From: a phage | Length of the DNA: 64,000 nt | Sequence record: PZ027503.1 | Strand: one strand, 5' to 3' | Shown: positions 6,239 through 20,703 of the stretch, in pieces | Position numbering within the stretch: the stretch's first letter is position 1 | Layout: each line of letters starts with the position of its first letter | Made by a program: the position numbers and the translations under genes | Notes under the pieces: generated by a model | Seen by the model: the letters and a program-made list of their open reading frames with translations, nothing else | What the model was told of the DNA's origin: nothing | Database searches by the model: none

Positions 6239-6434
6239 TTCTACCTCCTTCGATGCTTTGTGCCGTACCATCCCAAGCCATTAGAATATTTGCCAATAGT
6301 TCACGAGGCTCTTTAAACCAAACTTCCATTTCATCAAGAATCTCGTCCGTGTCGTAAGTATAACCTGGAACACCAAGTTCGCATTTCTTAAGATAGCTTT
6401 CTAACCAGCGGTGATAATTCTTAACCCCATTCAT
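6231..6434 (-). CDS. hypothetical protein (67 aa)
   Basis: ORF track. Confidence 0.5.
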   Translation of the reverse strand: MNGVKNYHRWLESYLKKCELGVPGYTYDTDEILDEMEVWFKEPRELLANILMAWDGTAQSIEGGRNE

Positions 6435-6759
6435 ACTGTGCTACCTTTTCTTTTACCCAATCTACACGATCTTTATCATAATGTTGAGTGCCAAGGAAAA
6501 GACCATTGTGGAAACTTTCCTCACCGAAAGGATAAATCGGATCTAAACCATCTTCTTCAAATAACATTTTTAGTCTCTGTGATGTAGATTTCTTAGTTTC
6601 TGAGTTGTAGTTTGTGGTTATAAGCCAATCTTCCAAACAACGACACAAACCTTGACGAGAATCCCAAGGAAAAACGCAATCTCCGACAGGAGCTTGTTCA
6701 GCCCATTTCAACCAGCCTTTAAAAAAGTTATACAGTATGTAGTCTTCAGTGTAATACAT
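6421..6759 (-). CDS. paralog family A member (GLC ... RVDWVKEK motif)
   Basis: ORF track frame; start at internal ATG with AAGGAGG RBS; shared motifs with 6 other ORFs. Confidence 0.6.
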   Translation of the reverse strand: MYYTEDYILYNFFKGWLKWAEQAPVGDCVFPWDSRQGLCRCLEDWLITTNYNSETKKSTSQRLKMLFEEDGLDPIYPFGEESFHNGLFLGTQHYDKDRVDWVKEKVAQYEWG

Positions 6760-6810
6760 TAGCGCCTCCTTTACGTATACAATAACACCCCGAAGAACGG
6801 GGTGCAACTG

Positions 6811-7422
6811 TTATTTAATCTGTTTGAAAATTTCGTTTGGAACGGTACCGTTTAAAATACCTTCTACGATCTCCTGTGCAGACGTGTAAGAGAGTCCAAA
6901 AGAAGCTACGCCTAAAATTGCCTCCTTCAAAGGATCTGGCAGGGGTTCAAAATTACCTGCAACAAAGCCACCTGCACAAGCAGCGCCTTCATCATCCCAG
7001 AAAACAACTGCTACATCGTTACCATGCGAAGTTGTGCGATGTGCAATAACTTCAACTTCGGTGCCTTCTTTAGGAACAGAATAAGAACTGTCCCAAGAAT
7101 ATCTTTCCAAATCAGGAACAAAGATAACCTTTTCACCTACTGGTGGCAGTTCACAACGATAGTACCAAGAATTTTTTTCGTTCATTGTTTTATTTTCCTC
7201 CACGTCTTCAAAAGTAACGATCCAATCGTAGCCGTAAGAAAACGGATATTTTAGATCTAAAGAATAAGTTTGACCTAGATCATCCTCAACAAGAACCATC
7301 CTGTCAAAGTTTGCGATGTTAGGATTATGTTTAATGATAGGGTATGTTTCCCCTACAGTAAATTGTCCCAAATGGTAAAGTTCATCTCTCCAAGTAATTT
7401 GGATATGAGTGCATTGAATCAT
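6811..7422 (-). CDS. hypothetical protein (203 aa)
   Basis: ORF track. Confidence 0.6.
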   Translation of the reverse strand: MIQCTHIQITWRDELYHLGQFTVGETYPIIKHNPNIANFDRMVLVEDDLGQTYSLDLKYPFSYGYDWIVTFEDVEENKTMNEKNSWYYRCELPPVGEKVIFVPDLERYSWDSSYSVPKEGTEVEVIAHRTTSHGNDVAVVFWDDEGAACAGGFVAGNFEPLPDPLKEAILGVASFGLSYTSAQEIVEGILNGTVPNEIFKQIK

Positions 7423-7426
7423 AAAA

Positions 7427-7702
7427 TCACCCCCAAGAAATATTTATATATCTTACAATGTTTGCACTGTCTAAAGCCATGTTTGCACCACACCCACGCT
7501 CGCGCCAGTAACTAACAATACCTTCGCAGATACTTTCTTGTATCTTCTTATCACTTGGCATTTCTAGTATAAGACTTGGGTTGTGGATGTTTATGTTATA
7601 ATATCCTTCCTCTGCGGCTTGAGCTACCAACTTACTTACTTTTTCAAAGTACGGGGAATTAGTAGCATCTGCCATTGTTTTTAAGGTTTGTCTATCCATC
7701 AT
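7427..7702 (-). CDS. hypothetical protein (91 aa)
   Basis: ORF track. Confidence 0.55.
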   Translation of the reverse strand: MMDRQTLKTMADATNSPYFEKVSKLVAQAAEEGYYNINIHNPSLILEMPSDKKIQESICEGIVSYWRERGCGANMALDSANIVRYINISWG

Positions 7703-8064
7703 TCTACCTCATCATAGAAGAAATCCAACTCTTGTTCCAGTTGTTTAACTCGATCCTTAACCCACTGTACACGTTTTTCATTAAACATACAACGTTTTTC
7801 CTTACACTCTTGCTCAAAAGATTTTGCTGTGTTAAATGGGAAAGTTGTATCTAAGCCAGCGTTTTCAAAACTGGCTAATTGCATACCATAAACAGAATAT
7901 GCTAAAGAATGCTCTGCCCGAAATTCATCACTTATATACATACGCAGACCTCGGCATAAGCCAACATCAGCGTAACCACTTTCTCTTGGAAAGAGACGGA
8001 GGTGTTCTAACCAATTATTATAGAAATCTAAAAGAATCCTCTTACACTTCAAATCAATTGTCAT
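7699..8064 (-). CDS. paralog family A member (GLC ... RVQWVKDR motif)
   Basis: ORF track frame; start at internal ATG with GAAGGAG RBS. Confidence 0.6.
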   Translation of the reverse strand: MTIDLKCKRILLDFYNNWLEHLRLFPRESGYADVGLCRGLRMYISDEFRAEHSLAYSVYGMQLASFENAGLDTTFPFNTAKSFEQECKEKRCMFNEKRVQWVKDRVKQLEQELDFFYDEVE

Positions 8065-8464
8065 AAAAAGTTTCTCCTTCATCAAACAAGTTGGCAAGAT
8101 TGTTCATGGCAATCTGGGTGGAAAGAAGACAACTGTTTGCAGACACATAAGCACGAGCTATTTTGTAAACATAGACTTTCGTATTACAATTGTCTAGGAT
8201 CGGAAGGCTTTCGTCGATAGCATCTATAACACTAAACATCACATCTAAAACTTTAATGGTGAGTGTTGTATTTGTATCTTCGTAACCTTTTTCAATCAGA
8301 CCTGAATAGAAGGTATAGTCCTCAACAGTTCGTCGTTTAAATTGGCGCATAAAATCGGAACCATCTGTAGCAGAATTGAACAAATTTTCAAAAAATACGT
8401 CCCATCCGGCAAAAAGGGCTGACAGCATGATTAAGTGATCTACAGATTCATTTTCTTGTTTCAT
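8054..8464 (-). CDS. hypothetical protein (136 aa)
   Basis: ORF track. Confidence 0.55.
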   Translation of the reverse strand: MKQENESVDHLIMLSALFAGWDVFFENLFNSATDGSDFMRQFKRRTVEDYTFYSGLIEKGYEDTNTTLTIKVLDVMFSVIDAIDESLPILDNCNTKVYVYKIARAYVSANSCLLSTQIAMNNLANLFDEGETFYDN

Positions 8465-8472
8465 ATCCTCTC

Positions 8473-9144
8473 CTATTTAATGTTAAGTCTGGCACACAAA
8501 CGAGAAACAGTTTTAGCATCCCATTTACCACCACGTGCTGTTGCTATTTTCTTACTGTTGAATTTTTCAGCAATAGTTTTGTAAGGTGTATTTAAATCTC
8601 TAAGGATCTCCAAACGTTCACGGAATGTCTCTGCAAAAGCATCTGCTTTAACAGAGTTGTATTCCATTTTTCCTTTTCTACGCGCAGCGGCAGTTTTAGG
8701 ATTAGCACTGCCTAATAAAACACCTTTGCTTTTTGCTACAGCAAGACCCTTTTTAATACGATCAGCAATACCTCTAACCTCTTGTTCAGCCAGAACAGAC
8801 AGAAGCTGTATAACCATTTTATCTGCATCTGGCATAATGGCTATCTTAACATCAATCATTTCTAGAAGAGTTGCTACGGAGGCGTTGTTACGACCCAAGC
8901 GGTCAACTTTAGCTACCAATAAAGTTGCTCCGGTAGCTTTACACATTTCAACCGCTTTAACCAGTTCCTTACGTTGCTTCCAATCGCCCTTACCCGAATA
9001 GTATTCAGAAAATTGACCAATAACTTCCGCATCAGGCACAGAGTCTAAGAAGTAACGGATATCGTTCTCTTGGCTCTCCATACCATATTGTGCCTCGCCT
9101 TTTTTCTGTTTAGAAAGACGACTGTAAACAACAAACTTTTTCAT
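8473..9144 (-). CDS. serine recombinase (resolvase/invertase family)
   Basis: VYSRLSKQ catalytic-Ser motif, VAKVDRLGRN motif, C-terminal HTH-like segment; AGGAG RBS; sigma70-like promoter upstream. Confidence 0.75.
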   Translation of the reverse strand: MKKFVVYSRLSKQKKGEAQYGMESQENDIRYFLDSVPDAEVIGQFSEYYSGKGDWKQRKELVKAVEMCKATGATLLVAKVDRLGRNNASVATLLEMIDVKIAIMPDADKMVIQLLSVLAEQEVRGIADRIKKGLAVAKSKGVLLGSANPKTAAARRKGKMEYNSVKADAFAETFRERLEILRDLNTPYKTIAEKFNSKKIATARGGKWDAKTVSRLCARLNIK

Positions 9145-9214
9145 AACCACTCCTAAACCATTGCTGTATTCTCACTTTACAAAATGAATAAACACTTGTC
9201 AAGGTATTTATTAT

Positions 9215-9427
9215 TTACAGCCATTCTACTCTTAAGCAGTATTCCTCGACATGTTGTTTACGCTTGTTTTTGTCTATGTAAGTGTATTCAACAAATGTCC
9301 CAAGATAGTCCTTGTCTACATTGTGTGGGCTATTGATTGGACATTTAGTACGACAAACCCGTTGCCACTGACGAAGAATTACGGCTTTGTTTTTAGGATC
9401 AAACGGATGAGGGTAATATACCTTCAT
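9215..9427 (-). CDS. hypothetical protein (70 aa)
   Basis: ORF track. Confidence 0.5.
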   Translation of the reverse strand: MKVYYPHPFDPKNKAVILRQWQRVCRTKCPINSPHNVDKDYLGTFVEYTYIDKNKRKQHVEEYCLRVEWL

Positions 9428-9751
9428 TCACGCCCCCTGTTTTAGTCGAAAAATATTTTGAATAACTAGAGATGTATAGTTATCACCTAGTCCCATAAGT
9501 TCTACTTCCAAGTTTCGAATATCTTCCACCGTAGGAGGATATGTTGGTAAAAATGCTTGAGCATTGCCAGATCCAACCTCATTGCTGTAAGCAGTTGTAA
9601 AATTGTAAGATACAAAACATGAAACACCTTTTTGTCGGTACCCGATTAATCGACGAATACACCAGATAAGAGCCAAACCTATGAGAACACCTCCTAAACC
9701 AGCTAACAAGAAGGATAAGTTCATAATAGCTTCGTTAACAACTGCTTGCAT
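9428..9751 (-). CDS. membrane protein (107 aa)
   Basis: ORF track; N-terminal TM helix. Confidence 0.5.
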   Translation of the reverse strand: MQAVVNEAIMNLSFLLAGLGGVLIGLALIWCIRRLIGYRQKGVSCFVSYNFTTAYSNEVGSGNAQAFLPTYPPTVEDIRNLEVELMGLGDNYTSLVIQNIFRLKQGA

Positions 9752-9761
9752 TCTTTTCTCC

Positions 9762-10061
9762 TTAGTTATGTAAACCCAAATGTGCTACAACTTCTCTACG
9801 ATAAGATAACTGCATAGCGATTTTATAGCCAGGATGAAAACCATTTACATCAATGTCATCAAACCAAACCTCAAACGAACCGTGCTTAAGAGTCATTAAG
9901 TTGATATACCATTCGATAGTATAATGATCGTCAGCAATACCTTCGATGTAAAACTCTCGGCAACAATGAGATAAATCTTCACTTGTTTCACGTTTCCAGT
10001 CTTTGATAGCACCCTTCTCTTTAGCTTTATTCAGAATGTGGATCAGGTCTTCAACTTGCAT
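9762..10061 (-). CDS. hypothetical protein (99 aa)
   Basis: ORF track. Confidence 0.55.
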   Translation of the reverse strand: MQVEDLIHILNKAKEKGAIKDWKRETSEDLSHCCREFYIEGIADDHYTIEWYINLMTLKHGSFEVWFDDIDVNGFHPGYKIAMQLSYRREVVAHLGLHN

Positions 10062-10113
10062 ATTCTCTCCTTTGTGGTTAATCTTTATATTTTAAATATT
10101 GTACCGTCTTCTG

Positions 10114-10527
10114 TCAAATAGTCTCTTTCTCTAAAACAACTCTTTGGATCACAACATCTTCAATGTTTGCCAAACAATGACCCAAAGTCAATCCCGCCTT
10201 GAAAGGTGCTTGTAGTTTGGATTCGGCTTCTACGCGAACAGAATGTTCCGCTCCGCACATGGTGTAATCTACACGGTAAACGTTTAAACCTAAGAACATA
10301 GATTCTTCTTCCTCACAACAAGGATGAAGTTCAGCCCAGTCCCAAGCATCTCCTTCTAAAGCAAATGGAGTATTGTAATTGAAGAAAGTGCAGCGCGGAT
10401 ATTCCCCGTTGAAAGAATCTTTCAGCAGAATATATTTCTTACCGTTTGCATGGAAGAGTTCTCCTTTGATAACTTTACCTACAAGGATATCACTGTTAGT
10501 GGAACGGGTGCAAATAAACTTTTTCAT
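10114..10527 (-). CDS. hypothetical protein (137 aa)
   Basis: ORF track. Confidence 0.55.
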   Translation of the reverse strand: MKKFICTRSTNSDILVGKVIKGELFHANGKKYILLKDSFNGEYPRCTFFNYNTPFALEGDAWDWAELHPCCEEEESMFLGLNVYRVDYTMCGAEHSVRVEAESKLQAPFKAGLTLGHCLANIEDVVIQRVVLEKETI

Positions 10528-10581
10528 GATTTTCTCCTCTCTGTTTCGATGAGATGATTATGACAAAGACAGATCCTTCTG

Positions 10582-10908
10582 TCAACCAATTATTTCTTCT
10601 GCTACACGTTCTTTTACCCAGTTCACACGATCCACATTCAAATGACAACGGCCTTTTTCCGCTTCTAAGGTGTACTTTCCAAAATTACTGTTGAAAGGCA
10701 ACACCATAACCAAACCTTTGAGGTAGAACTGCTCATGCATTTCATCCAGTACAGGTTCGTATCGTTCGCTTTCTCCTATGTCGTAAAAATCATAGAGGTT
10801 CGTGCACAAACCTGTGCAACGGGTGAACGGTTCACCTTCAGGAGCACCAGCTTCCAACCATGCCAAATACGTGCGGTAAAATGTTAATAGCTCTTCGCTC
10901 ATTTCCAC
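10582..10908 (-). CDS. paralog family A member
   Basis: ORF track; FYRTYLAWL, GLC, VDRVNWVKERV motifs. Confidence 0.6.
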   Translation of the reverse strand: MEMSEELLTFYRTYLAWLEAGAPEGEPFTRCTGLCTNLYDFYDIGESERYEPVLDEMHEQFYLKGLVMVLPFNSNFGKYTLEAEKGRCHLNVDRVNWVKERVAEEIIG

Positions 10909-11111
10909 TCTCCTTCGTGATAGTAAACCTCAAAAGAATAGTAAGTGAACATGCTCATTGTAACACCTGCCATTTCTGGATCAAAGGGGGTGTTGTTATA
11001 CATGTCAACTACTGCCTGACCCGCTGCTTTGGCATGTGCTGCTGAATCACAGGCACAAACATCTTTCTCCCACGGAAACTTGCCATCATACTTAAGACGG
11101 ACAATCCACAT
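10899..11111 (-). CDS. hypothetical protein (70 aa)
   Basis: ORF track. Confidence 0.5.
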   Translation of the reverse strand: MWIVRLKYDGKFPWEKDVCACDSAAHAKAAGQAVVDMYNNTPFDPEMAGVTMSMFTYYSFEVYYHEGEWK

Positions 11112-11113
11112 GC

Positions 11114-11341
11114 TTATTCCTCCATCTCAAACCATTCAGGGAACACTTTATGGAAGACACGGGTTGTTTCCAAAAGGAATTCCAATTCTTTTTCCAGATC
11201 TGCGTTCCAATCGTGCACTTTAACATTGATTGCCAATGCACTTGCACGGCGACTCAATTCTTGACAGATTGGATCACGCAGAACTATTGAGTCATAAAAC
11301 TGACAAACAGCCTCAAGTTCATACCAGTTATAATCCGACAT
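11114..11341 (-). CDS. hypothetical protein (75 aa)
   Basis: ORF track. Confidence 0.5.
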   Translation of the reverse strand: MSDYNWYELEAVCQFYDSIVLRDPICQELSRRASALAINVKVHDWNADLEKELEFLLETTRVFHKVFPEWFEMEE

Positions 11342-11667
11342 TATTCATCCTCCTCTGCAATACGATCTCTTACCCAATTAATCCTGTCCACGTTCAGGTG
11401 ACATACCTCTGCATCTGATTCTAAGACATATGCATCGTAGTTCTCATTGAAAGGGAGTTCTTGACTCAACCCTTTGTGGTAAAACTGTGAGTGCATTTCA
11501 TCTGACAAGGTTGTTATAAGAGGATTGTAGCCATCCGCGTGCACATAGTCGAATAAGTTGGCACACAAACCGCAATCCCGCCGAAAAGGTTTACCATCAG
11601 GAGCACCAACATCAATCCACGCTAGATAAATTTTATAAAACTCCATCAACCTTGCACTTGTTTTCAT
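11341..11667 (-). CDS. paralog family A member
   Basis: ORF track; FYKIYLAWI, GLC, VDRINWVRDRI motifs; GAGGTGG RBS. Confidence 0.6.
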   Translation of the reverse strand: MKTSARLMEFYKIYLAWIDVGAPDGKPFRRDCGLCANLFDYVHADGYNPLITTLSDEMHSQFYHKGLSQELPFNENYDAYVLESDAEVCHLNVDRINWVRDRIAEEDE

Positions 11668-11905
11668 TTAGCCACCTCGTTAGTTTTTCTTGCTCTTTGT
11701 TTGCGCGTTCTAAGCTTCTGAACTTTAAACAGAGGGAACGAGAATCCCTACCCATGCACAAGCTTTCATCTAAGCTGTGCTCCCCAACCAACCAAAGAGA
11801 GTATGTTTGAACATCTAACCCATAGTTTCTGTCTTTCCATAATCTCACCCCAAGAACATCAAAAGGCGCTTCCGCGACTAAAGAAAGAAACCGATCTTTA
11901 TTCAT
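11633..11905 (-). CDS. hypothetical protein (90 aa)
   Basis: ORF track; 35-nt overlap with downstream gene. Confidence 0.45.
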   Translation of the reverse strand: MNKDRFLSLVAEAPFDVLGVRLWKDRNYGLDVQTYSLWLVGEHSLDESLCMGRDSRSLCLKFRSLERANKEQEKLTRWLNENKCKVDGVL

Positions 11906-11967
11906 ATTACACCACCTTGCTCACGTTGATAATGTATGTATACCATACATAAAATAAATGTCAAGGC

Positions 11968-12168
11968 TTATCGACACAGATAGTTGTAACGATCTGCTTT
12001 ATCCTCTGCTTCAGCAAAGTCAGCAATCAAGGAAGTTTTGAGTTCTTCCAACTCTTTCACCCAAGAGTCGTAATCGTTCTGTGTTTCTCCAATAGTTTGG
12101 AGAAAACAATCGTCGTAGCCAATAGACATGGCTAACTCGATAATACGTTCCAGTTTTTCTTCCATCAT
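11968..12168 (-). CDS. hypothetical protein (66 aa)
   Basis: ORF track. Confidence 0.5.
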   Translation of the reverse strand: MMEEKLERIIELAMSIGYDDCFLQTIGETQNDYDSWVKELEELKTSLIADFAEAEDKADRYNYLCR

Positions 12169-12527
12169 TTCTCTCCTTCTACAGGCTTCTGTTTAACATA
12201 AAAGTAAGCACCACGAGCAAGATACAAATCATGTTCAATATCGCTCACAGGAAAACCATCTGGATTTTTAAAACCATCTTCTACAGCCAAAATGAGAGAT
12301 CGTAAACTGATAGCTAACAACTCCATTTGATCTTGTAGTTTTCTATTTTCTGCGTAAAGGTTTTTGCATTTTTGTTCTGCATTTTTCCATTGTTCTAATG
12401 CATGATCATAGCGGTGCATAAGAATAGCTTTTTCTTGTTCACGCTTAAAAGTTTCTTCGCAAATGAAACCTGTGCCTAAACCAGTTTCTTCGTCTTTGAC
12501 AAACACTTCAACAAAATCTTTAGACAT
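12165..12527 (-). CDS. hypothetical coiled-coil protein (120 aa)
   Basis: ORF track frame; start at internal ATG with AGGAGA RBS. Confidence 0.55.
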   Translation of the reverse strand: MSKDFVEVFVKDEETGLGTGFICEETFKREQEKAILMHRYDHALEQWKNAEQKCKNLYAENRKLQDQMELLAISLRSLILAVEDGFKNPDGFPVSDIEHDLYLARGAYFYVKQKPVEGEK

Positions 12528-12528
12528 A

Positions 12529-12819
12529 TTATCTCCTATTTGCTTTAGGATACTCCCAACCCTCTGGGAGATCTTCTTTACACATCCACTCAAAAGGCCA
12601 GCGACAATAACTGTGCCATTTTCCATTGAGATACAAACAATCTTCATCTACTGGTCCACAAGGGTTGATAACTACAACACACCCTTTCGCTCGCCAATAT
12701 TGAACTATTTCAGGGTAAAAACAAGAAACGTCGGTCCACTCCCAAATACGTTCATCATTCAGACGGTAGGCTGCTGGTAATGTTTCTTTCATAGTATTAA
12801 ACCTGAGCCAAGGAGTCAC
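12529..12819 (-). CDS. hypothetical protein (96 aa)
   Basis: ORF track. Confidence 0.55.
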   Translation of the reverse strand: MTPWLRFNTMKETLPAAYRLNDERIWEWTDVSCFYPEIVQYWRAKGCVVVINPCGPVDEDCLYLNGKWHSYCRWPFEWMCKEDLPEGWEYPKANRR

Positions 12820-13252
12820 GCCAATTACGGCTATCTCCTTCTCCTAAATACCAGTAATCCGCAGCATTAAAAACTTGATAAGGAATACGCCACGCATAAG
12901 CGAAATCTGGAATCTCCGGTTTATGACTGTAACCATAACGCTCGCCATTCGAATCTGTTGCAATATAATTAACAAATTCAGGAACCTCTAAAGTTTCACC
13001 TTGATACTCTACACGCTTGAAGCCATCTTCCACTTGTTCCTCCCCTTCTACCAGAAGGGCAAGAAGTTTGATGTGAGGGCAAGTGAAATCTTGTCCTGGA
13101 TAACGTGAACGGATATCAGTTAACAATGCGATCACAGCATCCGATAACTCTTTATAATCCTCATATCTTACAAATGTGCCTTCTGTCGGATCATCAGGAC
13201 ATAAACGCCAAACATCGTTGCAGTTTACAGCATAATGTCGCATTTTAGTCAT
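12797..13252 (-). CDS. hypothetical protein (151 aa)
   Basis: ORF track. Confidence 0.55.
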   Translation of the reverse strand: MTKMRHYAVNCNDVWRLCPDDPTEGTFVRYEDYKELSDAVIALLTDIRSRYPGQDFTCPHIKLLALLVEGEEQVEDGFKRVEYQGETLEVPEFVNYIATDSNGERYGYSHKPEIPDFAYAWRIPYQVFNAADYWYLGEGDSRNWRDSLAQV

Positions 13253-13262
13253 AAATACCCCC

Positions 13263-13661
13263 TTATCGTTGCGTACAATCAGCTTCTAGAGTAAGAACAT
13301 TCGTTATTGTTTTATCATTTTTTAGAAATGCAAACCAAGCCAAAGTGTCTCGATACTCTGTGCGCATCATTACTACTTCAGTAGTGCCAATAAACTGTTG
13401 TGAACCGTACATAGCACTACCATCTTTACTTTTTTCTCCTGTGTATTGCAGAATGCCACTCATCAAAGCACCACCTGAATTTTTAAGGATAAAGGAGTTA
13501 TCTTTGTTAATGACAACAGAAGCCATTTTCTTAGGACCAGAAATAACTTCACCTTTCAGATTTTTAACAACCACCTCTGACACACACTCATAAACTTGAG
13601 ACGCATTTGCTGTTCCAAGTGATGCAATGAGTAACAATAAACCTACAATGATCTTTTTCAT
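13263..13661 (-). CDS. secreted protein with signal peptide (132 aa)
   Basis: ORF track; MKKIIVGLLLLIASLGTANA. Confidence 0.6.
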   Translation of the reverse strand: MKKIIVGLLLLIASLGTANASQVYECVSEVVVKNLKGEVISGPKKMASVVINKDNSFILKNSGGALMSGILQYTGEKSKDGSAMYGSQQFIGTTEVVMMRTEYRDTLAWFAFLKNDKTITNVLTLEADCTQR

Positions 13662-13756
13662 ATAAACTCTCCTCTTTATTTACCCGACGCGCCCCTGTTG
13701 GGCGGAAAGGGTTGTACGCAAAATTTTTAGCTCCAATCGTCGGGTGTCCCGACTCC

Positions 13757-13963
13757 TTACGCTTTTAATGTTTTAACAGAATGACAAGCTTTGCAAACCA
13801 TAACCGGAACAAGTTCATCTCCATTATCCGCATAAATCACTGTTTTCTTCATTCTGCCACCACATGAACAATACTCCGTATGATCCACTGGAATATTAAA
13901 TATTCCGTAATCACTTTCATACTGTTTCTTACATATGGACACTGCTTTTGTAAAACAAGACAT
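13757..13963 (-). CDS. small zinc-ribbon-like protein (68 aa)
   Basis: ORF track; CSCGG...CKAC. Confidence 0.5.
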   Translation of the reverse strand: MSCFTKAVSICKKQYESDYGIFNIPVDHTEYCSCGGRMKKTVIYADNGDELVPVMVCKACHSVKTLKA

Positions 13964-13965
13964 AC

Positions 13966-14187
13966 CTACTCCGAAAGAACATTCACTTCATCAGAGAAAA
14001 ATACGTAATCACAACCTTCCCAAACATCTTCTTCAAACCACTCCCATCCCTCAACTTTGGACATTTCTTCTATCGTAACAAAGAATGTTGTCATGTCATC
14101 GCTAACAAGATGTGCTTCAACAACAAAAGGAATCTGAACATTCTCAAAACCAACATAACCCAATACATCGCAAACTCTAATTTTCAT
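13966..14187 (-). CDS. hypothetical protein (73 aa)
   Basis: ORF track. Confidence 0.5.
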   Translation of the reverse strand: MKIRVCDVLGYVGFENVQIPFVVEAHLVSDDMTTFFVTIEEMSKVEGWEWFEEDVWEGCDYVFFSDEVNVLSE

Positions 14188-14188
14188 A

Positions 14189-14389
14189 TTATGCTCCTTT
14201 GTAGATTATGTTGGTGCGTTCACACTCTGCCACCAGCAAGCGATTAGCAATGTTGTCCATAGGAACATCAATCTCTACGCTCCAGGCATTGATATACACT
14301 TCTTCAATCTTTGCTCCAAGCGTTTGTGCGATCAGAGCAACAGCCCCAGCATATTCAAGTTTAATCTCAATTACCATTTTGCACCTCAA
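14189..14389 (-). CDS. hypothetical protein (66 aa)
   Basis: ORF track. Confidence 0.5.
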   Translation of the reverse strand: MRCKMVIEIKLEYAGAVALIAQTLGAKIEEVYINAWSVEIDVPMDNIANRLLVAECERTNIIYKGA

Positions 14390-14391
14390 GG

Positions 14392-14592
14392 TTATTTATC
14401 TTGCTTGTATCTTACAAGGCGATCACACTCTAGGTCAAGAAATTTCTCCGCATTTCGTTCATGTTTGAGCACAATACATTGTTCTTTCCAGTCTGTAGCT
14501 CTTTGCTGCGCTGCTCCTGGGTCAAAATCCCAAAGCCATGCCGCGAAAAGAACTACCATAACAATTACTAAGAAACTAAACACTATTGGCAT
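14392..14592 (-). CDS. small membrane protein (66 aa)
   Basis: ORF track frame; start at internal ATG with AGGAGG RBS; TM helix. Confidence 0.5.
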   Translation of the reverse strand: MPIVFSFLVIVMVVLFAAWLWDFDPGAAQQRATDWKEQCIVLKHERNAEKFLDLECDRLVRYKQDK

Positions 14593-14897
14593 TGCACATC
14601 CTCCTGTGTGGCATGGTCTTTTACCCATTTTATACGGGCAGCATTCAAATGCAATAGCCCGTTTCTTTGTGCAAAATCATATTTAAACCAGTCTCCGTCA
14701 TCAAACGGGTATTCTTCAGACAATCCTGCCTCACGGAATTGCATTTGCATTTCATAATTTAGATCATCATAACCTCCAGTCCAAAGGTAGAGGCAACTAC
14801 ATAATCCTTTATCATGCCAGAAAGGATTATTATCTGGAGCACCAGCTAACAGCCAGTTATGATATGCTTGATAAAATTCTTTAAGTTCTTCTGACAT
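14583..14897 (-). CDS. paralog family A member
   Basis: ORF track; FYQAYHNWL, GLC, ARIKWVKDH motifs. Confidence 0.6.
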   Translation of the reverse strand: MSEELKEFYQAYHNWLLAGAPDNNPFWHDKGLCSCLYLWTGGYDDLNYEMQMQFREAGLSEEYPFDDGDWFKYDFAQRNGLLHLNAARIKWVKDHATQEDVQCQ

Positions 14898-15074
14898 TTA
14901 ACCTCCTGTGTACAGGGTTGAAAGATACACAGCAAACGCATTCTCGGCTGTTTTCACCTCCTCTTCAAGATCTTCACGCTCTGCTGGCGTTAATGCATTC
15001 CGCACAGCAGCGTCTGCTTCTCGGATTTTTCTTACTAAACGTGAAACATCTTTCAATTGTTGAAAAGTAGCCAT
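14898..15074 (-). CDS. small protein (58 aa)
   Basis: hand-translated MATFQQLKDVSRLVRKIREADAAV...; AGGAGA RBS. Confidence 0.4.
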   Translation of the reverse strand: MATFQQLKDVSRLVRKIREADAAVRNALTPAEREDLEEEVKTAENAFAVYLSTLYTGG

Positions 15075-15088
15075 AATTTTCTCCTGTT

Positions 15089-15448
15089 TTAGTGAGTATC
15101 ACGCCATTCGGCAATCTCTTCGGCTAAACGATCACAAGAATCGAAAGCCACTTTACCTTCACCAGGGTAGTTCCAGAAGACACCCCGTGAATCTGTAATG
15201 TTTATATGATACTTGTCCCACATCTCTTTTGCAAGTGGTCGATCAACATATCCTTCAAAATATATTTCAGTTTCTGCTGAATATGGAGTGTAATCACTGG
15301 CAGCAAAAGCATCCTGGAAGATCACCATCACGTTACGTGTTGTGCTTGGGTACATCAATTGGTGAAATTTCAACAACCTTCCGTTGATCCTAACAACATC
15401 TCCTTCAAACAAGGAGATATCTTTTACTTTACGAAATTCTCCGCTCAT
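15089..15448 (-). CDS. hypothetical protein (119 aa)
   Basis: ORF track. Confidence 0.55.
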   Translation of the reverse strand: MSGEFRKVKDISLFEGDVVRINGRLLKFHQLMYPSTTRNVMVIFQDAFAASDYTPYSAETEIYFEGYVDRPLAKEMWDKYHINITDSRGVFWNYPGEGKVAFDSCDRLAEEIAEWRDTH

Positions 15449-15457
15449 TTTACCCCC

Positions 15458-15649
15458 TTAATACACATCTCCTACAAACCAGATTTCTGGATCGCCATAC
15501 TGATCCTTCTCGTAAGATTTATAGACATTACAGCAATATTTCAAAACACCATCGACAAAGATTGTTGATCTTTCTTCTGGAATCTCTGTGATTTCACCTT
15601 TACGGGTTTCGAAGATGGTATCACCATTTTCAATTAGTCTGATTTTCAT
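15458..15649 (-). CDS. hypothetical protein (63 aa)
   Basis: ORF track. Confidence 0.5.
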   Translation of the reverse strand: MKIRLIENGDTIFETRKGEITEIPEERSTIFVDGVLKYCCNVYKSYEKDQYGDPEIWFVGDVY

Positions 15650-15848
15650 ATCGTACTTCCTTCAATGCGAGTAATGCATTCACCAGATTATCAACACCTT
15701 GATCATCCAGTGCAATAACATCAAAGTTAAACCCTGTATCAGTTGGGACTTTACGTTTTATGGTGTAATAGTCTCCTTCATGACGTTCAACATCCGCGTA
15801 TGGGTAACTGCTGTTTGGATCATGTTTTACGCGAATAGATGTTTTCAT
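15630..15848 (-). CDS. hypothetical protein (72 aa)
   Basis: ORF track. Confidence 0.5.
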   Translation of the reverse strand: MKTSIRVKHDPNSSYPYADVERHEGDYYTIKRKVPTDTGFNFDVIALDDQGVDNLVNALLALKEVRYENQTN

Positions 15849-16318
15849 GTTTTGTTCTCCTCTTTAATTGCAACACGGAACTTATTAGCTTCTCTCACCT
15901 GGTGCATGAAGTCTTTCTTCTTCATAATCCAGATGGACATTTCATCCAGTTCTTCTGGGTGAATCTGAAGATTACGGCGATCAGACAGGAACCAAGTTTT
16001 CTCCCACCAGAAGCGTTGATCCTCCTCTTCGTGATATTTATATGTCTCTTTTTCTTCTTCTGTGAGAAGTTTGAATCGGTTTTTCGCTTCGTACCTCATT
16101 GGGGTATGAAAAGGAATGCCATTATCACCATTATACACCGCAGACGTACCCAGACAATAACCAGTTTCTGCGTCGATCATTTGGTAGTGAAACTCACACT
16201 CCAGTTCAACATACTCTAAATCCCCATAAAAATCACTAATCAAGAAAGCAATGTAAGTTTCACCGTGTTCGGGAACAAATTCTTGCTTTGTCAACATCTC
16301 CAGTTTCAAACCTGCCAT
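15845..16318 (-). CDS. hypothetical protein (157 aa)
   Basis: ORF track. Confidence 0.55.
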   Translation of the reverse strand: MAGLKLEMLTKQEFVPEHGETYIAFLISDFYGDLEYVELECEFHYQMIDAETGYCLGTSAVYNGDNGIPFHTPMRYEAKNRFKLLTEEEKETYKYHEEEDQRFWWEKTWFLSDRRNLQIHPEELDEMSIWIMKKKDFMHQVREANKFRVAIKEENKT

Positions 16319-16330
16319 TGCTTTTTCCTT

Positions 16331-16582
16331 TTAGTCAAACCAGTTGTATTCAGAAGGGTAACGAGCGTAGTTTGGCTTGTACCCCAGCCTTTTCATCTTA
16401 ACAGACATACGAGTGAAGCCAAAGGTTGTTTTGCCCTTAGACATAAACTTCTTCCCACTCTTCATTGGCTTCTTAGGGTCTTTGATCGTCTGGTGTAACG
16501 CTCGCGCAAGCCATAAAGTGTATGCGCTCGGCACTTGATTAACTTTCATCTTGTTACCTTTCATCATTTCACCTCGGACCAA
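16331..16582 (-). CDS. small basic protein (83 aa)
   Basis: ORF track; K/R-rich. Confidence 0.5.
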   Translation of the reverse strand: MVRGEMMKGNKMKVNQVPSAYTLWLARALHQTIKDPKKPMKSGKKFMSKGKTTFGFTRMSVKMKRLGYKPNYARYPSEYNWFD

Positions 16583-16863
16583 TCAATAGTGATCCACTCA
16601 TATGCTCCGTTTAGGTCCATTTCTTTATAAACAACAAGCCCACGCTCACGAAGAATTGCTACTGCTTCATCCATCCACTTCACCTGATTGTAGATCTGCT
16701 CTGGGTGGGTGGGAGAATTATTCAGACCAAAATCAGATGGCGTGAAATTTCTTGAAGAGTTTCCCGCTCGTGCTTCAGCAAAACATGTCTCGATCACTTC
16801 TTCAACAGGGAAGTTGAAGGAAGCTTCTTTTGCAATACGGCGTAACTGTTCGGTCAGATTCAT
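16564..16863 (-). CDS. hypothetical protein (99 aa)
   Basis: ORF track. Confidence 0.55.
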   Translation of the reverse strand: MNLTEQLRRIAKEASFNFPVEEVIETCFAEARAGNSSRNFTPSDFGLNNSPTHPEQIYNQVKWMDEAVAILRERGLVVYKEMDLNGAYEWITIDWSEVK

Positions 16864-16890
16864 CTTATTCTCCTTTCGTTGTGCGAAACA

Positions 16891-17328
16891 TTACAGCAGA
16901 TCTAATGCTTTCAACTCTTCTTTCAATGATTCAGGCAGGTCACATTCAATGTCAATCAGAGATAACAAGTGACCAACAATGCCTTCCAGATGTTGATACT
17001 CACTATAACTTATAAATTCAGAATTGTAAACAGAAACATCCTTAGTTTCTTTCACAACTTCCCCCGCAGACACGCACATAAAAAAGTTACGCTCTCCGCG
17101 AGCTAACAATATCTCCCAACTCCTGAACGGATACTGTCCAGCTTCAATAATATCCCCGCTGTCCAATAAAGTCAATGAGCAAACAGACCCTGATTCACTA
17201 ACATCTTCGACGCGGAAACAAGACCCTTCAATCAAAGCTGCCATTTTGAAATTTTCATCAGAGATCATAGAGAAAGCTTCACATGCAGCTTTACTTTTGA
17301 AACAGTAAACAGCATTAACTTTAAACAT
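16891..17328 (-). CDS. paralog family B member
   Basis: ORF track; MFKVNAVYCF N-terminus shared with two neighbours. Confidence 0.55.
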   Translation of the reverse strand: MFKVNAVYCFKSKAACEAFSMISDENFKMAALIEGSCFRVEDVSESGSVCSLTLLDSGDIIEAGQYPFRSWEILLARGERNFFMCVSAGEVVKETKDVSVYNSEFISYSEYQHLEGIVGHLLSLIDIECDLPESLKEELKALDLL

Positions 17329-17340
17329 AACATTCCCCTT

Positions 17341-17796
17341 TTAAACAAAAGATACGCCGATGGTAGCAACAACCAAACGTTTATAAACTTCAACCTCTTC
17401 TGTAGGATTAGCCATTTTATGCTCTGCTGCTTCTTTCAAAGCTTCTTCATAACTTTCAAATCCAGAAATACAGGTGTCATCAGTCATTACAACATACCAC
17501 TCTTCTTTTGTTGTATCAACAGGTTCTTCTTGGGGTTTTCCACGACCACCACGAATACCACCGTCAACAAAATAATCTATATGAGCAGAATTGATTATGT
17601 AACGATCCCCATCACTAGCAGTGATAATACCGTCTCTCCCTATCACAACAATTGACAAGATATTACCATTTGCATCAGTGCTCAACACCTCGAAAAAATT
17701 CTCTCCAATGATAGCAGCCATACTGTTATCAAAGGTAGAATATAATTGCATATAATCTTCATCCTGGAAACGGTAGACATGACCTTCTTTGAACAT
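17341..17796 (-). CDS. paralog family B member
   Basis: ORF track; MFKEGHVYRF; C-terminal domain shared with 17802-18257. Confidence 0.55.
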   Translation of the reverse strand: MFKEGHVYRFQDEDYMQLYSTFDNSMAAIIGENFFEVLSTDANGNILSIVVIGRDGIITASDGDRYIINSAHIDYFVDGGIRGGRGKPQEEPVDTTKEEWYVVMTDDTCISGFESYEEALKEAAEHKMANPTEEVEVYKRLVVATIGVSFV

Positions 17797-17801
17797 TGGC
17801 T

Positions 17802-18257
17802 TTACTCCTTATCAATAGTGATTGTGGCGTTTGCTACTGCAACACGAGCGTAAATCTCAACCGTCTTCGACGGATAATCCTTCTTAGCTTTTGTAGCGAC
17901 TTCAGAAGCTTTTTCAAAACTAGAACAAACATCTACACACTCTGATCCTACGATCACAACATGCCATTGTGGTTCTGCTTTACCCATTGTTTCCTCCTTT
18001 ACTTCTTCAAAATATTTAAATTCTTCGTTATCAATCAAATAAGTATACGAATTAAACCCTGGGGTAACACCTGCTGTATAGAGGGTACCATTGATATAAA
18101 ACTCAAGAACATGACCATACTTATCATCTGTATTCATAACTTTGAAAACTTCGTTTCCAATTGCTTGACAAACAGCAATATTTGCTTTGTCCTGTGTTGC
18201 CATAGCTCCTTGGTCAGCAACGCTTTTGAATTTATAAGTAAACCCTACTTTAAACAC
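17802..18257 (-). CDS. paralog family B member (GTG start)
   Basis: ORF track frame; start moved to GTG after AAGGAG RBS giving (M)FKVGFTYKF. Confidence 0.5.
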   Translation of the reverse strand: MFKVGFTYKFKSVADQGAMATQDKANIAVCQAIGNEVFKVMNTDDKYGHVLEFYINGTLYTAGVTPGFNSYTYLIDNEEFKYFEEVKEETMGKAEPQWHVVIVGSECVDVCSSFEKASEVATKAKKDYPSKTVEIYARVAVANATITIDKE

Positions 18258-18444
18258 GATGTGCTCCTTCTTGTTCAAGAGTAAAAGGAATGATTTCACC
18301 GTAGCTGTATCGCATAGCATCCACTTCTTCTTCTGCACGTTGTGCTAGTTCTAATGTTGCACAGATTTTGTAAGGGACAGTGCTGCATTGGCTCCAGCCT
18401 GGGGTATTCTTTGTTACTAAATATACAGTAGTTCCTTTATTCAT
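18250..18444 (-). CDS. hypothetical protein (64 aa)
   Basis: ORF track. Confidence 0.5.
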   Translation of the reverse strand: MNKGTTVYLVTKNTPGWSQCSTVPYKICATLELAQRAEEEVDAMRYSYGEIIPFTLEQEGAHRV

Positions 18445-18898
18445 AACTTTCTCCTCCTAGTTCATCATACCATTTCAAAGCGTCTTTTGGAAGCATACCA
18501 AAATCTTCTTTCAGTTCTTTTTCAATCTCTTCTTGCATTTCCATCAGCGTTTTCAGTTGACGGACTTTTTTGTGCATAGCCACATTCCTTTCATTAAGGT
18601 TTGTCACTACATTATTTGCACGACTCGGTGGAAATGACAAAGGTTTCACGGGAAGATAATCTTCGATATTATCTAGTGCGTTACGAAAATTATGATCCAA
18701 GAAACGCACATCTACACGATTGTAATCAGCAGCTACAACAGTGAACACTTTAAACGGCACGTTGGATAAAGTATGTTGCACACAGACAGTACCCATATTA
18801 CCTTCAATTTTACTGGTAACTTCCAGCAAACCTGTATGAGCACTAACATAATCGTGAACACATTGCACATAAGCTGCCAGTATAGTGAATTGTCTCAT
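18437..18898 (-). CDS. hypothetical protein (153 aa)
   Basis: ORF track. Confidence 0.55.
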   Translation of the reverse strand: MRQFTILAAYVQCVHDYVSAHTGLLEVTSKIEGNMGTVCVQHTLSNVPFKVFTVVAADYNRVDVRFLDHNFRNALDNIEDYLPVKPLSFPPSRANNVVTNLNERNVAMHKKVRQLKTLMEMQEEIEKELKEDFGMLPKDALKWYDELGGESYE

Positions 18899-19143
18899 TT
18901 TCTACCTCCCCATAATGCTAACATTTTATTGAAAATGGAAACGCGTCGTGCGCGAGATGCCATATCATAGTTCATTCTTTCCGTCTCTGCAAGAAATTGA
19001 TCTACTGTAATCAACGCTTCTGTTTTCTCTTTCAGAGTTTGCATATTCATCCATTCACATTCGGAGTACCAATTATCGAAATACAAACTATCAAGAAGAT
19101 CCATTGCTGCTTCGTTCTGTTGTGGTGTGATCATTGCACACAA
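18895..19143 (-). CDS. hypothetical protein (82 aa)
   Basis: ORF track. Confidence 0.5.
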   Translation of the reverse strand: MCAMITPQQNEAAMDLLDSLYFDNWYSECEWMNMQTLKEKTEALITVDQFLAETERMNYDMASRARRVSIFNKMLALWGGRK

Positions 19144-19146
19144 CCT

Positions 19147-19377
19147 TTAATAGACAATTTCATATTCGTGAGGAAAGAAAACATAATCTTCCCCTTCTCG
19201 TGCATCTATCTCGTCCCAAAACCACTCCTGCACTTCCATCATCTTCGAGAATCGCACATGAGCAAGCCCACTGTATTCCACTGTAGCTTCCAACACAAGT
19301 GGAAATTTTGCATGTGCCAATCCTTTATAACCACCATCATTCTCAATACGAATTTTCATACGTTTCATGTTATGCAT
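19147..19377 (-). CDS. hypothetical protein (76 aa)
   Basis: ORF track. Confidence 0.5.
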   Translation of the reverse strand: MHNMKRMKIRIENDGGYKGLAHAKFPLVLEATVEYSGLAHVRFSKMMEVQEWFWDEIDAREGEDYVFFPHEYEIVY

Positions 19378-19579
19378 CTTTCATATTCTCCACGAAGTGA
19401 CGAGCAACAGGATTCCCGTGGAAATATTCATTGATGAAATCGATCACACACGTTTCACTGCCTGTCACAACGGACGGTGCGAAGTTTCGGAACTGCACGA
19501 GTACACGACTTGCATTAGCAAGGGTGTGCACACGATCAGTGTTAGCTAAATACAAGGATACAGTTTTCATATTTGACAT
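19370..19579 (-). CDS. hypothetical protein (69 aa)
   Basis: ORF track. Confidence 0.5.
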   Translation of the reverse strand: MSNMKTVSLYLANTDRVHTLANASRVLVQFRNFAPSVVTGSETCVIDFINEYFHGNPVARHFVENMKDA

Positions 19580-19638
19580 TTCAATCTCCTCATTGGCTAT
19601 CTGTTATGTGCGGTATGCAAACCACTATACAGACATTT

Positions 19639-20022
19639 TTATTCAATGCAAGCATTATTTGCATCTTCAATGCGATCTTTCACCCATTGAAGACGTAACG
19701 TGTTGGTATGACACGCCAAGTTTATACACTCTGAAAGGTAATCCATGCAATCTGCATTGAACGGAAGATTGTAGTCCAGCCCTGCACATGTAAATTGTTT
19801 CCTCATTTCATATTTCAAACGGTCTAACAAACTATCCCGCCATCTTCTATCTTCTTCTCTAGTTGTCTCACCAACAAAATCATCTACATAATCTACCAGA
19901 CAACCACATAAGCCACTCGTTGTGCGATTCATTGCAGGATAGTTGGCAATCCATGCTTTATAGAAGCGAAGCAATGTTGCACTACTCAACGGAATATTAT
20001 TTGTCATTTTTCTCTCCTTCAT
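19639..20022 (-). CDS. paralog family A member
   Basis: ORF track; FYKAWI, GLC, RLQWVKDRI motifs. Confidence 0.55.
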   Translation of the reverse strand: MKERKMTNNIPLSSATLLRFYKAWIANYPAMNRTTSGLCGCLVDYVDDFVGETTREEDRRWRDSLLDRLKYEMRKQFTCAGLDYNLPFNADCMDYLSECINLACHTNTLRLQWVKDRIEDANNACIE

Positions 20023-20341
20023 AATCCTGAATTCTATCTAACACCCATTGTATACGATGTTTGTTTTTATGGCAAATATGTTTTTTATGTTCGAAGGTGT
20101 ATTCTTCATAACCACCTTCATTAAACGGGAAATTGTAATCTAGTCCTGCACTAATAAACTGTGATTTCATCTCCTGTTGTAGACGAGGTAACAGTTCATC
20201 AGGGTATGTTCCCTCTACATACTTAATCAAACATATGCACAAACCACTCGTTGTGTGACCTTCTACCTCACCAGTAAGCCAAGCTTTGTAAAACTTCATT
20301 AGACGTAAGCTACTCAACGGAACATTTCTACTCTCTTGCAT
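19997..20341 (-). CDS. paralog family A member
   Basis: ORF track; FYKAWL, GLC, RIQWVLDRI motifs. Confidence 0.55.
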   Translation of the reverse strand: MQESRNVPLSSLRLMKFYKAWLTGEVEGHTTSGLCICLIKYVEGTYPDELLPRLQQEMKSQFISAGLDYNFPFNEGGYEEYTFEHKKHICHKNKHRIQWVLDRIQDYEGEKNDK

Positions 20342-20680
20342 GATAATCTCCTCTCATTCTTAGCCATCTTTCATGGCAATCATCAATCACCAACATCATA
20401 CGATCAATCTTAGGGAATTACAATCGAATTATCATAGGGGATTCCTATCAATTATCCCATATATACCGATTATTTTTGACACCCCACTCTTGTATAAAAA
20501 GTAACCCAAAATATCTACGGGGAGAGATTATTTCGGGACACCCTGTTTCATGGCAATCATGGCAAGAATATCTAATAGAATCAATATGATATGGCAAAAA
20601 TCATGGCGCATACGTAAGAAGTGCTTAACGCGAACTTTCGGGCCGTCAGGTCCACGCAGCGACAATTCCCAAATATCATG

Positions 20681-20703
20681 CGAATGAGAATAATTATCAT
20701 TCG
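20681..20703. promoter_or_regulatory. operator-like palindrome CGAATGA-N9-TCATTCG
   Basis: inverted repeat seen in sequence; related motifs at 20863, 33553, 33625. Confidence 0.4.

What the first reader, a model, noticed from the sequence alone, without database searches (positions are those of the whole stretch)
6421..20341. Seven-member paralogous family of ~110-130 aa proteins scattered through the early array
ORFs at 6421-6759, 7699-8064, 10582-10908, 11341-11667, 14583-14897, 19639-20022 and 19997-20341 share an N-terminal aromatic FYxxYLxW-like motif, a central GLC(x)CL motif, a (Y/L)PF(N/D) motif and a C-terminal H-x-N-x2-R-(I/V)-x-WV-(K/R)-(D/E)-(R/K)-(I/V) signature, with divergent sequence in between. 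Seven diverged copies in 14 kb is a strong expansion for a phage and suggests diversifying selection, as expected for host-factor binders or anti-defence proteins. The conserved Cys and His could bind metal.
Basis: seen in the sequence. Interest (0 to 1): 0.65.

Follow-up and report, generated by a model that had tools for sequence, protein, structure and literature searches.

The report
Seven-copy uncharacterised phage early-protein family
Seven small genes in the early region of this E. coli phage really are diverged copies of one phage-only protein family with no known function and no solved relative, but they are old, conserved copies rather than fast-evolving ones, and the proposed metal site is not supported.

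Summary
Seven minus-strand genes (104-122 aa) align in register with 15 invariant columns, and all match one PHROG (phrog_2510, unknown function; E 1e-25 to 1e-32). A profile finds exactly seven in the window. The window is a phAPEC8-like Phapecoctavirus, and every record calls these genes hypothetical.

One Cys, a Pro-Phe pair and one Arg are near-invariant. The second Cys is not conserved, and the His is replaced in about 29% of domains, so a Cys/His metal site is unsupported. Orthologues are under purifying selection (pN/pS median 0.13 against 0.22 for neighbours). Paralogues are deep lineages, and copy number varies from 5 to 10 within the genus.

Function is unknown. My best guess (0.35) is an accessory early effector that uses a conserved Cys/Arg-centred site, with specificity set by variable loops.

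The parts
6421..6759 (-). Family member 1 (112 aa). Divergent copy: keeps the Cys, PF, Arg and WV but lacks the family's Glu/Gln pair, and has Gly and Asp in place of the two Asn.
   Evidence: phrog_2510 E 4.1e-27; AAGGAGG ribosome-binding site before ATG 6759; terminator-like hairpin 6785-6805 just upstream; signature table
7699..8064 (-). Family member 2 (121 aa). Divergent copy: lacks the Glu/Gln pair and has Met in place of the His.
   Evidence: phrog_2510 E 2.3e-26; GAAGGAGA before ATG 8064; signature table
10582..10902 (-). Full signature. Local duplicate of member 4 (53% identity). Absent from phages ukendt and phAPEC8_ev052.
   Evidence: phrog_2510 E 2.4e-31; ribosome-binding-site spacing favours 10902; Mt1B1_P17 annotates a 321-nt CDS; presence/absence; tree
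11341..11667 (-). Family member 4 (108 aa). Full signature. This is the copy used for structure prediction.
   Evidence: phrog_2510 E 3.4e-32; AlphaFold2 pLDDT 94.8, pTM 0.88, five helices
14583..14897 (-). Family member 5 (104 aa). Full polar signature (PFD variant) and the shortest helix 2-helix 3 segment. Most strongly constrained copy (pN/pS 0.02).
   Evidence: phrog_2510 E 8e-29
19639..20007 (-). Full signature and the longest helix 2-helix 3 insert (29 aa). Its start overlaps the end of member 7 by 11 nt. The orthologue is shared with Justusliebigvirus phages.
   Evidence: phrog_2510 E 2.5e-25; ribosome-binding site; Mt1B1_P17 annotates a 369-nt CDS; about 85% nucleotide identity to EmilieFrey/PATM over window 18265-20009; tree
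19997..20341 (-). Family member 7 (114 aa). First gene of the leftward array and tandem partner of member 6. Full signature. Absent from ukendt and Ro121lw; phiWec179 has three tandem copies at this end.
   Evidence: phrog_2510 E 3.7e-26; GAGGAG ribosome-binding site; copy-number comparison

Best explanation
The seven genes are old paralogues of a phage-restricted, single-domain, all-helical protein family (PHROG 2510 / pVOG VOG7392; the N4-like representative is gp3). They lie in the leftward array of small genes that I take to be early-expressed.

Proposed mechanism: each copy is a small, soluble, mildly acidic cytoplasmic effector that works as a dimer or pseudo-dimer. It uses a conserved polar site built around the near-invariant Cys at the N-terminus of helix 2 and the near-invariant Arg of helix 5, with Glu, Gln, Asn, His/Tyr and Asn around them. 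With this site it binds or chemically modifies a ligand common to Proteobacteria: a small molecule, a nucleotide-like signal, or a conserved patch of a host macromolecule. The paralogues differ mainly in two variable segments, the helix 2-helix 3 segment (12-29 aa) and the stretch between PFN and the His. I propose these set the specificity, so the phage carries a panel of related effectors for host takeover or counter-defence. Individual copies are dispensable.

Shown: homology; fold prediction; the conservation pattern; purifying selection; copy-number variation; position in small-gene arrays of unrelated phages; tandem fusions.

Inferred: early expression in this phage; dimerisation of the single-domain forms; clustering of the conserved residues into one site; the nature of the ligand; any role in host takeover or counter-defence.
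For: One family.

Position: the homologue is gp3 in the early region of an N4-like phage, upstream of the RNAPII genes (N4 early/middle scheme from PMC4496689). It is gp03 plus a two-domain gp04 at the left end of Rhizobium autographivirus RHEph09. It also sits in arrays of small hypothetical genes in phiPMW, Bas80 and JC221.

Phage restriction: 261 of 50,697 phage records hold a match, against 1 of 72,556 plasmid records, and that one looks like a phage-plasmid. All named cluster members are phage proteins or sit on contigs of 120-154 kb.

Size of the family: 1,611 representatives at E <= 1e-3 and 637 at E <= 1e-10.

Fold: confident five-helix domain, pLDDT 94.8.

Conservation across phages of alpha-, beta- and gamma-proteobacteria: Cys 198/200, PF 202/203, Arg 201/202, Asn 187 (+11 Asp), Gln 172, Glu 167, His 144 (+25 Tyr). 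That is more conservation than expected for an interface with a fast-evolving defence protein.

Oligomerisation hint: two- and three-domain natural fusions keep the Cys, PF and Arg in each domain, and the two-domain form models with pTM 0.81.

Selection and dispensability: purifying selection on every copy; 5 to 10 copies per genome within the genus.

Variable segments are tabulated.
Against: There is no experimental or homology-based functional evidence at all. Pfam, NCBIfam, PADLOC and PDB sequence searches gave nothing, fold searches gave nothing, and the literature searches found nothing.

I could not read model coordinates. That the conserved polar residues form one pocket is therefore inferred only from helix periodicity and position. 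They could equally be a buried structural network.

Two of the seven copies (6424, 7702) have lost the Glu/Gln pair, and one has lost the His, yet both are under purifying selection. So the full polar set is not needed for whatever those copies do.

Early expression in this phage is inferred from position and orientation, not measured.

pTM 0.81 for a fused protein does not prove that single-domain copies dimerise.
Confidence: 0.35

Rival explanations
1. The copies are stoichiometric binders or inhibitors of rapidly evolving host factors or defence proteins. They diversify under positive selection, each copy tracking a different host target through a variable protein-protein interface.
For: Multi-copy and variable in number. 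Located in small-gene arrays where known anti-defence genes of other phages often lie (general knowledge). Small, acidic, soluble proteins. Large sequence divergence between copies.
Against: Orthologues show purifying selection, with pN/pS 0.02-0.36 and a median below that of neighbouring genes. Paralogue lineages are deep and shared with other genera. About eight polar positions are conserved across phages of very different hosts, which is unlike an interface with variable targets. Whole-gene pN/pS cannot exclude positive selection at a few loop sites.
Confidence: 0.2
2. The domain is a thiol-dependent enzyme. The near-invariant Cys at the helix N-terminus is a nucleophile, assisted by His/Tyr, Asn and Arg, and it covalently modifies or cleaves a host or signalling molecule. 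This is the catalytic version of the best explanation.
For: Cys 198/200 with no Ser or Ala substitutions. It lies in G-L-C at the start of helix 2, where a helix dipole can lower a thiol pKa. Arg, Asn, Glu, Gln and His are also conserved.
Confidence: 0.15
3. The domain binds a metal (zinc or iron) through Cys and His, possibly with ligands supplied by two protomers of a dimer. It acts as a structural or redox-sensing module.
For: One invariant Cys and a frequent His. 4 of 7 window copies have C-x-C. Tandem fusions keep a Cys in each domain and model as a packed pair, so an interfacial site is not excluded.
Against: A monomer has only one invariant ligand. The second Cys of C-x-C is Asn in 130 of about 200 domains. 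The Cys preceding the His is not conserved. The His is Tyr, Trp or another residue in 29%. No zinc-finger or zinc-ribbon Pfam match.
Confidence: 0.07
4. The copies are DNA-binding or RNA-polymerase-binding regulators of the phage early-to-middle transcription programme. The multiple copies serve different promoters or stages.
Confidence: 0.08

Closest known systems
PHROG phrog_2510 (and pVOG VOG7392), catalogued phage protein clusters of unknown function
   Same: All seven proteins match the phrog_2510 profile over their full length (E 1e-25 to 1e-32). In phage ukendt, the five genes at the positions of window family members are labelled VOG7392 by its annotators.
   Different: These catalogues record only membership. 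No function, structure, conserved-site description or copy-number analysis is attached, and no paper in the searched library mentions either identifier.
gp3 of N4-like coliphages (Enquatrovirus), an early-region ORF
   Same: Homologous domain: tblastn 30% identity at E 1e-5, and family profile E 4.4e-18. It lies in the early region between gp2 and the RNAPII genes.
   Different: N4-like phages carry a single copy against seven here. gp3 has no described function; the N4 RNA polymerase review names only gp1, gp2, gp15 and gp16 among early products, and 'gp3' does not occur in its main text.
Lineage-specific expansions of small proteins in large phages (for example the roughly 35-copy zinc-ribbon expansion of Bacillus phage G noted in PMC7824862)
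   Same: Many diverged copies of one small domain within one phage genome, of unknown role.
   Different: The fold differs: five helices and no zinc-ribbon ligands. This family is also spread across many unrelated phage lineages rather than confined to one genome.
Small phage anti-defence proteins (nucleotide sponges such as Tad1, Tad2 and Acb2; DNA mimics such as Ocr and ArdA)
   Same: Small, soluble, acidic proteins in accessory-gene regions, often oligomeric. A conserved ligand-binding site would resemble the sponge principle. This is my inference from general knowledge, not a tool result.

Membership tests
PHROG 2510 / pVOG 7392 (N4 gp3-like phage proteins) | Significant full-length match to the family profile | tested here: met
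   All seven: E 2.5e-25 to 3.4e-32, covering about 100-113 profile positions
PHROG 2510 / pVOG 7392 (N4 gp3-like phage proteins) | Family signature in register (F-Y..W, G-L-C, P-F-N, H-x-N-x2-R-x2-W-V) | tested here: met
   15 invariant columns among the seven. The same columns are conserved in about 200 domains of the wider family. Per-copy table.
PHROG 2510 / pVOG 7392 (N4 gp3-like phage proteins) | Shared fold among members | tested here: met
   Model of copy 11344 (pLDDT 94.8) matches BFVD models of homologues from Rhizobium, Burkholderia, Achromobacter, Delftia, Pectobacterium and Klebsiella phages at TM 0.70-0.87
Cys/His metal-binding (zinc-finger-like) small proteins | Three or four conserved metal ligands (Cys/His) per site | tested here: not met
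   Only one Cys is invariant (198/200). The second C-x-C position is Asn in 130 domains. The His is present in 144/202. The Cys before the His is not conserved.
Cys/His metal-binding (zinc-finger-like) small proteins | Metal actually bound | not testable with these tools
   Needs ICP-MS or a structure of purified protein
DNA-mimic anti-restriction proteins (Ocr, ArdA) | Very acidic surface mimicking DNA, and family profile or fold match | tested here: not met
HEPN-type all-helical RNases | R-x(4-6)-H motif and HEPN four-helix fold | tested here: not met
Known anti-defence nucleotide sponges (Tad1, Tad2/DUF2829, Acb2) | Sequence or fold similarity to a solved member | tested here: not met
Known anti-defence nucleotide sponges (Tad1, Tad2/DUF2829, Acb2) | Binds an immune signalling nucleotide | not testable with these tools
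   Needs binding assays with purified protein
Papain-like Cys-His peptidases / deamidases | Alpha+beta papain fold with a Cys-His(-Asn/Asp) triad | tested here: not met
   The model is all-helical with no beta domain. The His is not invariant. There are no fold matches.

The most novel reading that the evidence does not exclude
The family is a previously unrecognised, phage-restricted ligand-binding or thiol-enzyme fold. Virulent phages of Proteobacteria deploy it early in infection. Large myoviruses carry it as a panel of 5 to 10 specificity-diversified copies, which may form homo- or heterodimers, to neutralise several host signals or defence pathways at once. N4 gp3 would then be the single-copy, genetically tractable prototype.
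Probability: 0.2. Interest if true: 0.75.

Novelty: new member of a known kind. Interest (0 to 1): 0.45.

Why it matters
The family is large: about 1,600 clusters at 50% identity. It is confined to phages and present in model or collection phages, namely N4-like phages and the BASEL phages Bas61 and Bas79/80. It has a confidently predicted fold with no solved relative and is completely uncharacterised. A near-invariant Cys and Arg give clear mutational targets. Copy number varies from 5 to 10 among near-identical phages, which provides natural knock-outs. If the proteins prove to be counter-defence or host-takeover effectors, one experiment series would annotate thousands of hypothetical phage genes. 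If they have no detectable role, the finding stays a well-documented example of an old multi-copy accessory family.

Tried and rejected
Searches that returned nothing useful:
- Pfam, NCBIfam and PADLOC scans of the seven proteins gave no real hits.
- A Pfam scan of 57 diverse members showed no recurrent weak family.
- A PDB sequence search with the profile gave zero hits at E <= 10.
- BFVD returned only uncharacterised phage proteins. afdb50 was unavailable.
- The word-indexed protein search recovered only close relatives, even with a diverse profile.
- The search for related loci on genome contigs could not use the alignment. On viral contigs it returned only two loci, both on one contig.
- Neighbourhoods of more distant homologues were further arrays of unnamed small genes with no conserved partner.
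- The fusion partners found, DUF551 and N-terminal transmembrane segments, are themselves uninformative.
- Literature searches for phrog_2510, VOG7392, N4 gp3, Phapecoctavirus paralogues, Stephanstirmvirinae anti-defence and the CRISPRi-ART screens found nothing on this family.

Ideas considered and rejected:
- Cys/His zinc site: conservation fails.
- DNA mimic: not acidic enough and no fold match.
- HEPN: motif order reversed and no fold match.
- Papain-like enzyme: the model is all-helical.
- Recent burst of duplication under positive selection: contradicted by the tree and pN/pS.

Not computed: dN/dS between paralogues, because at 25-53% protein identity synonymous sites are saturated.
Full report
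**Observation.** The window carries a long leftward array of small genes, with negative GC skew from about 2 kb to 40 kb. A MAFFT alignment puts every motif in register. It gives 15 invariant columns, including G-L-C, P-F, R and W-V.

An independent library confirms the homology. All seven match phrog_2510 (function unknown) over about 105 residues, at E 2.5e-25 to 3.4e-32. All 21 pairs are detected by BLASTP at 25-53% identity; the weakest pair has E 0.4 and the other 20 have E ≤ 7e-4. A profile of the seven finds exactly these seven among 674 six-frame ORFs, and the next hit has E 0.32.

Strong Shine-Dalgarno sequences fix the starts at 6759, 8064, 10902, 11667, 14897, 20007 and 20341. This agrees with the Mt1B1_P17 annotation. 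A terminator-like hairpin at 6785-6805 lies just upstream of gene 1.

**What the window is.** The 15-kb region is 98% identical to Escherichia phage Mt1B1_P17. It is 95-98% identical to dozens of phAPEC8-like phages (genus Phapecoctavirus, Stephanstirmvirinae). In every record these genes are "hypothetical protein". Only the ukendt record notes that they share a pVOG, VOG7392. No Pfam, NCBIfam or PADLOC model matches.

**Breadth of the family.**
- tblastn with one copy finds 261 phage records. They include N4-like phages (labelled "gp3 [Escherichia phage N4]" in one record) and autographiviruses of Rhizobium. Other hosts are Achromobacter, Erwinia, Delftia, Ralstonia, Klebsiella and Pseudomonas. 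The hits also include a straboviridae phage of Yersinia and a jumbo Erwinia phage.
- An exhaustive profile search of 1.84 billion cluster representatives finds 1,611 proteins at E ≤ 1e-3 and 637 at E ≤ 1e-10.
- Among the best 150, about 20 contain two or three tandem copies of the domain. A few carry an N-terminal DUF551 or transmembrane segments.
- Every named member is a phage protein or sits on a contig of 120-154 kb.
- Only 1 of 72,556 plasmid records has a match, and its gene content (Phd/Doc, dut, DUF2829) looks like a phage-plasmid.
- In the N4-like phage the gene lies in the early region upstream of the RNAPII genes (early/middle scheme from PMC4496689). In RHEph09 it is gp03 plus a two-domain gp04 at the left genome end. 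In phiPMW, Bas80 and JC221 it again sits among small unnamed genes.

**Conserved residues and the metal idea.** Counts across about 200 domains:

| Residue | Present in |
|---|---|
| Cys (of G-L-C) | 198/200 |
| Pro / Phe (of P-F) | 202/203 each |
| Arg | 201/202 |
| Trp (helix 5) | 191 |
| Asn | 187 (+11 Asp) |
| Gln | 172 |
| Glu | 167 |
| His | 144 (Tyr 25, Trp 6) |

The second position of "C-x-C" is Asn in 130 domains and Cys in 39. The Cys that precedes the His in most window copies does not reach the 60% conservation threshold. One invariant ligand cannot make a Cys/His metal site in a monomer. An interfacial site in a dimer is not excluded but has no support.

Within the window, five copies (10585, 11344, 14586, 19642, 20000) keep the whole polar set. 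The two promoter-distal copies (6424, 7702) keep the Cys, PF, Arg and WV but have lost the Glu/Gln pair. In addition 7702 has lost the His, and 6424 has lost both Asn. The main variable parts are the helix 2-helix 3 segment (12-29 aa) and the stretch between PFN and the His. The proteins are mildly acidic, with pI 4.5-6.2.

**Evolution.** Copy number in the equivalent region differs among close relatives:

| Phage or contig | Copies |
|---|---|
| ukendt | 5 |
| Ro121lw, phAPEC8_ev052 | 6 |
| this window, Mt1B1_P17, phAPEC8 | 7 |
| phiWec179 | 9 |
| one IMG/VR contig | 10 |

Copies 10585 and 20000 are the ones missing from some relatives.

Pooled Nei-Gojobori estimates, window against relatives, give pN/pS of 0.10, 0.11, 0.36, 0.30, 0.02, 0.31 and 0.13 for the seven genes (median 0.13). 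The median for 37 neighbouring genes is 0.22. So there is no whole-gene signal of diversifying selection.

A neighbour-joining tree of 41 domains has long, deep branches. It has no support values and is based on 111 columns. Homologues from N4-like, Bas80 and RHEph09 phages interleave with the window's copies. Only 10585/11344 and the promoter-proximal 19642/20000 group look like local duplications. The 19642 lineage is shared with Justusliebigvirus at about 85% nucleotide identity. Most of the expansion is therefore old.

**Mechanism.** Nothing assigns a function. Five observations guide the guess:
- About eight polar positions are conserved across phages of alpha-, beta- and gamma-proteobacteria.
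- The invariant Cys sits at a helix N-terminus.
- Each domain keeps the site in the tandem fusions.
- The two-domain form is packed.
- The family is phage-restricted and lies in small-gene arrays, and individual copies are dispensable.

From these I think the most likely reading is an accessory early effector. It would use a conserved Cys/Arg-centred site to bind or modify a ligand common to its hosts, act as a dimer or pseudo-dimer, and take its specificity from the variable segments (confidence 0.35).

Rivals:
- Protein-protein inhibitors under positive selection (0.2). The selection and conservation data argue against this.
- A true thiol enzyme (0.15).
- Transcription regulators (0.08). 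The negative charge and the gain and loss of copies argue against this.
- A metal-binding module (0.07). The conservation pattern argues against this.

**Comparison with known families.** The proteins are members of PHROG 2510 / pVOG 7392, and the N4-like counterpart is gp3. All of these are uncharacterised, and the literature searches found nothing on any of them. They fail the tested defining features of zinc-finger-like proteins, Ocr/ArdA DNA mimics, HEPN RNases, papain-like enzymes and the solved anti-defence sponges.

**Verdict.** The sequences are already in GenBank and the cluster is already catalogued. What this analysis adds:
- the size and phage restriction of the family;
- a confident fold with no solved relative;
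- the near-invariant Cys, PF and Arg signature;
- the tandem fusions;
- copy-number variation within the genus;
- evidence for old, constrained paralogues.

Interest is moderate (0.45). It is a good experimental lead, with N4 gp3 and the BASEL phages as entry points, but there is no functional evidence yet.

Noticed in passing
window 16891-17328, 17341-17796, 17802-18338 (minus strand): Three consecutive genes form a second paralogous set. They share an N-terminal domain of about 90 aa matching phrog_3710, phrog_622 and phrog_5347, all of unknown function. One GenBank record labels two of them 'goF mRNA metabolism modulator' and 'RNA metabolism moderator'. Paralogy is therefore a general feature of this array.
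   Followed up: partly
window 13966-14187 and 19147-19377 (minus strand): Two genes of about 75 aa are paralogues of each other. Both match phrog_15322 (E 2.5e-44 and 2.1e-41), and both are labelled VOG6032 in phage ukendt.
   Followed up: partly
window 8473-9150 (minus strand): This gene is a serine recombinase/resolvase (Pfam Resolvase E 5e-18; phrog_125 DNA invertase). Several GenBank records of close relatives annotate it as 'methionine ABC transporter ATP-binding protein', which looks like a propagated mis-annotation.
   Followed up: yes
window 20342-21962: An AT-rich, ORF-poor stretch of about 1.6 kb lies immediately upstream of the first family member. It contains several degenerate direct and inverted repeats rich in ATGATTATTATT-like motifs and a bidirectional terminator-like hairpin at 21929-21949. 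There are no Rfam matches and no tRNAs. It could be a regulatory or origin region.
   Followed up: partly
window 18265-20009: Only this part of the array, which includes family member 6, keeps about 85% nucleotide identity with Justusliebigvirus phages (EmilieFrey/Bas61, PATM, VivaForever). The rest of the 15-kb query does not match them by megablast. This suggests an exchanged or unusually conserved module.
   Followed up: partly
public records H14 (MG065650.1) and H11 (OP562383.1): Genomes 96-98% identical to this E. coli phage are deposited as 'Campylobacter phage B15' and 'Acinetobacter phage vB_AbaM_ABPW7'. The host labels are probably wrong or reflect contamination.
   Followed up: no
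L017 (NZ_CP148392.1, 49153-49632): The single plasmid-collection hit is a 159-aa protein on a 92.8-kb non-mobilizable E. coli element. That element carries Phd/Doc, dut, a DUF2829 protein and a PAPS-reductase-family gene, so it is apparently a phage-plasmid. The family is therefore not limited to virulent phages.
   Followed up: partly
L006 (Rhizobium phage RHEph09, 959-1288 and 1412-2092): An autographivirus carries a single-domain copy (gp03) directly followed by a two-domain fusion (gp04) at its left genome end. Three domains of the family therefore lie within the first 2.1 kb.
   Followed up: partly
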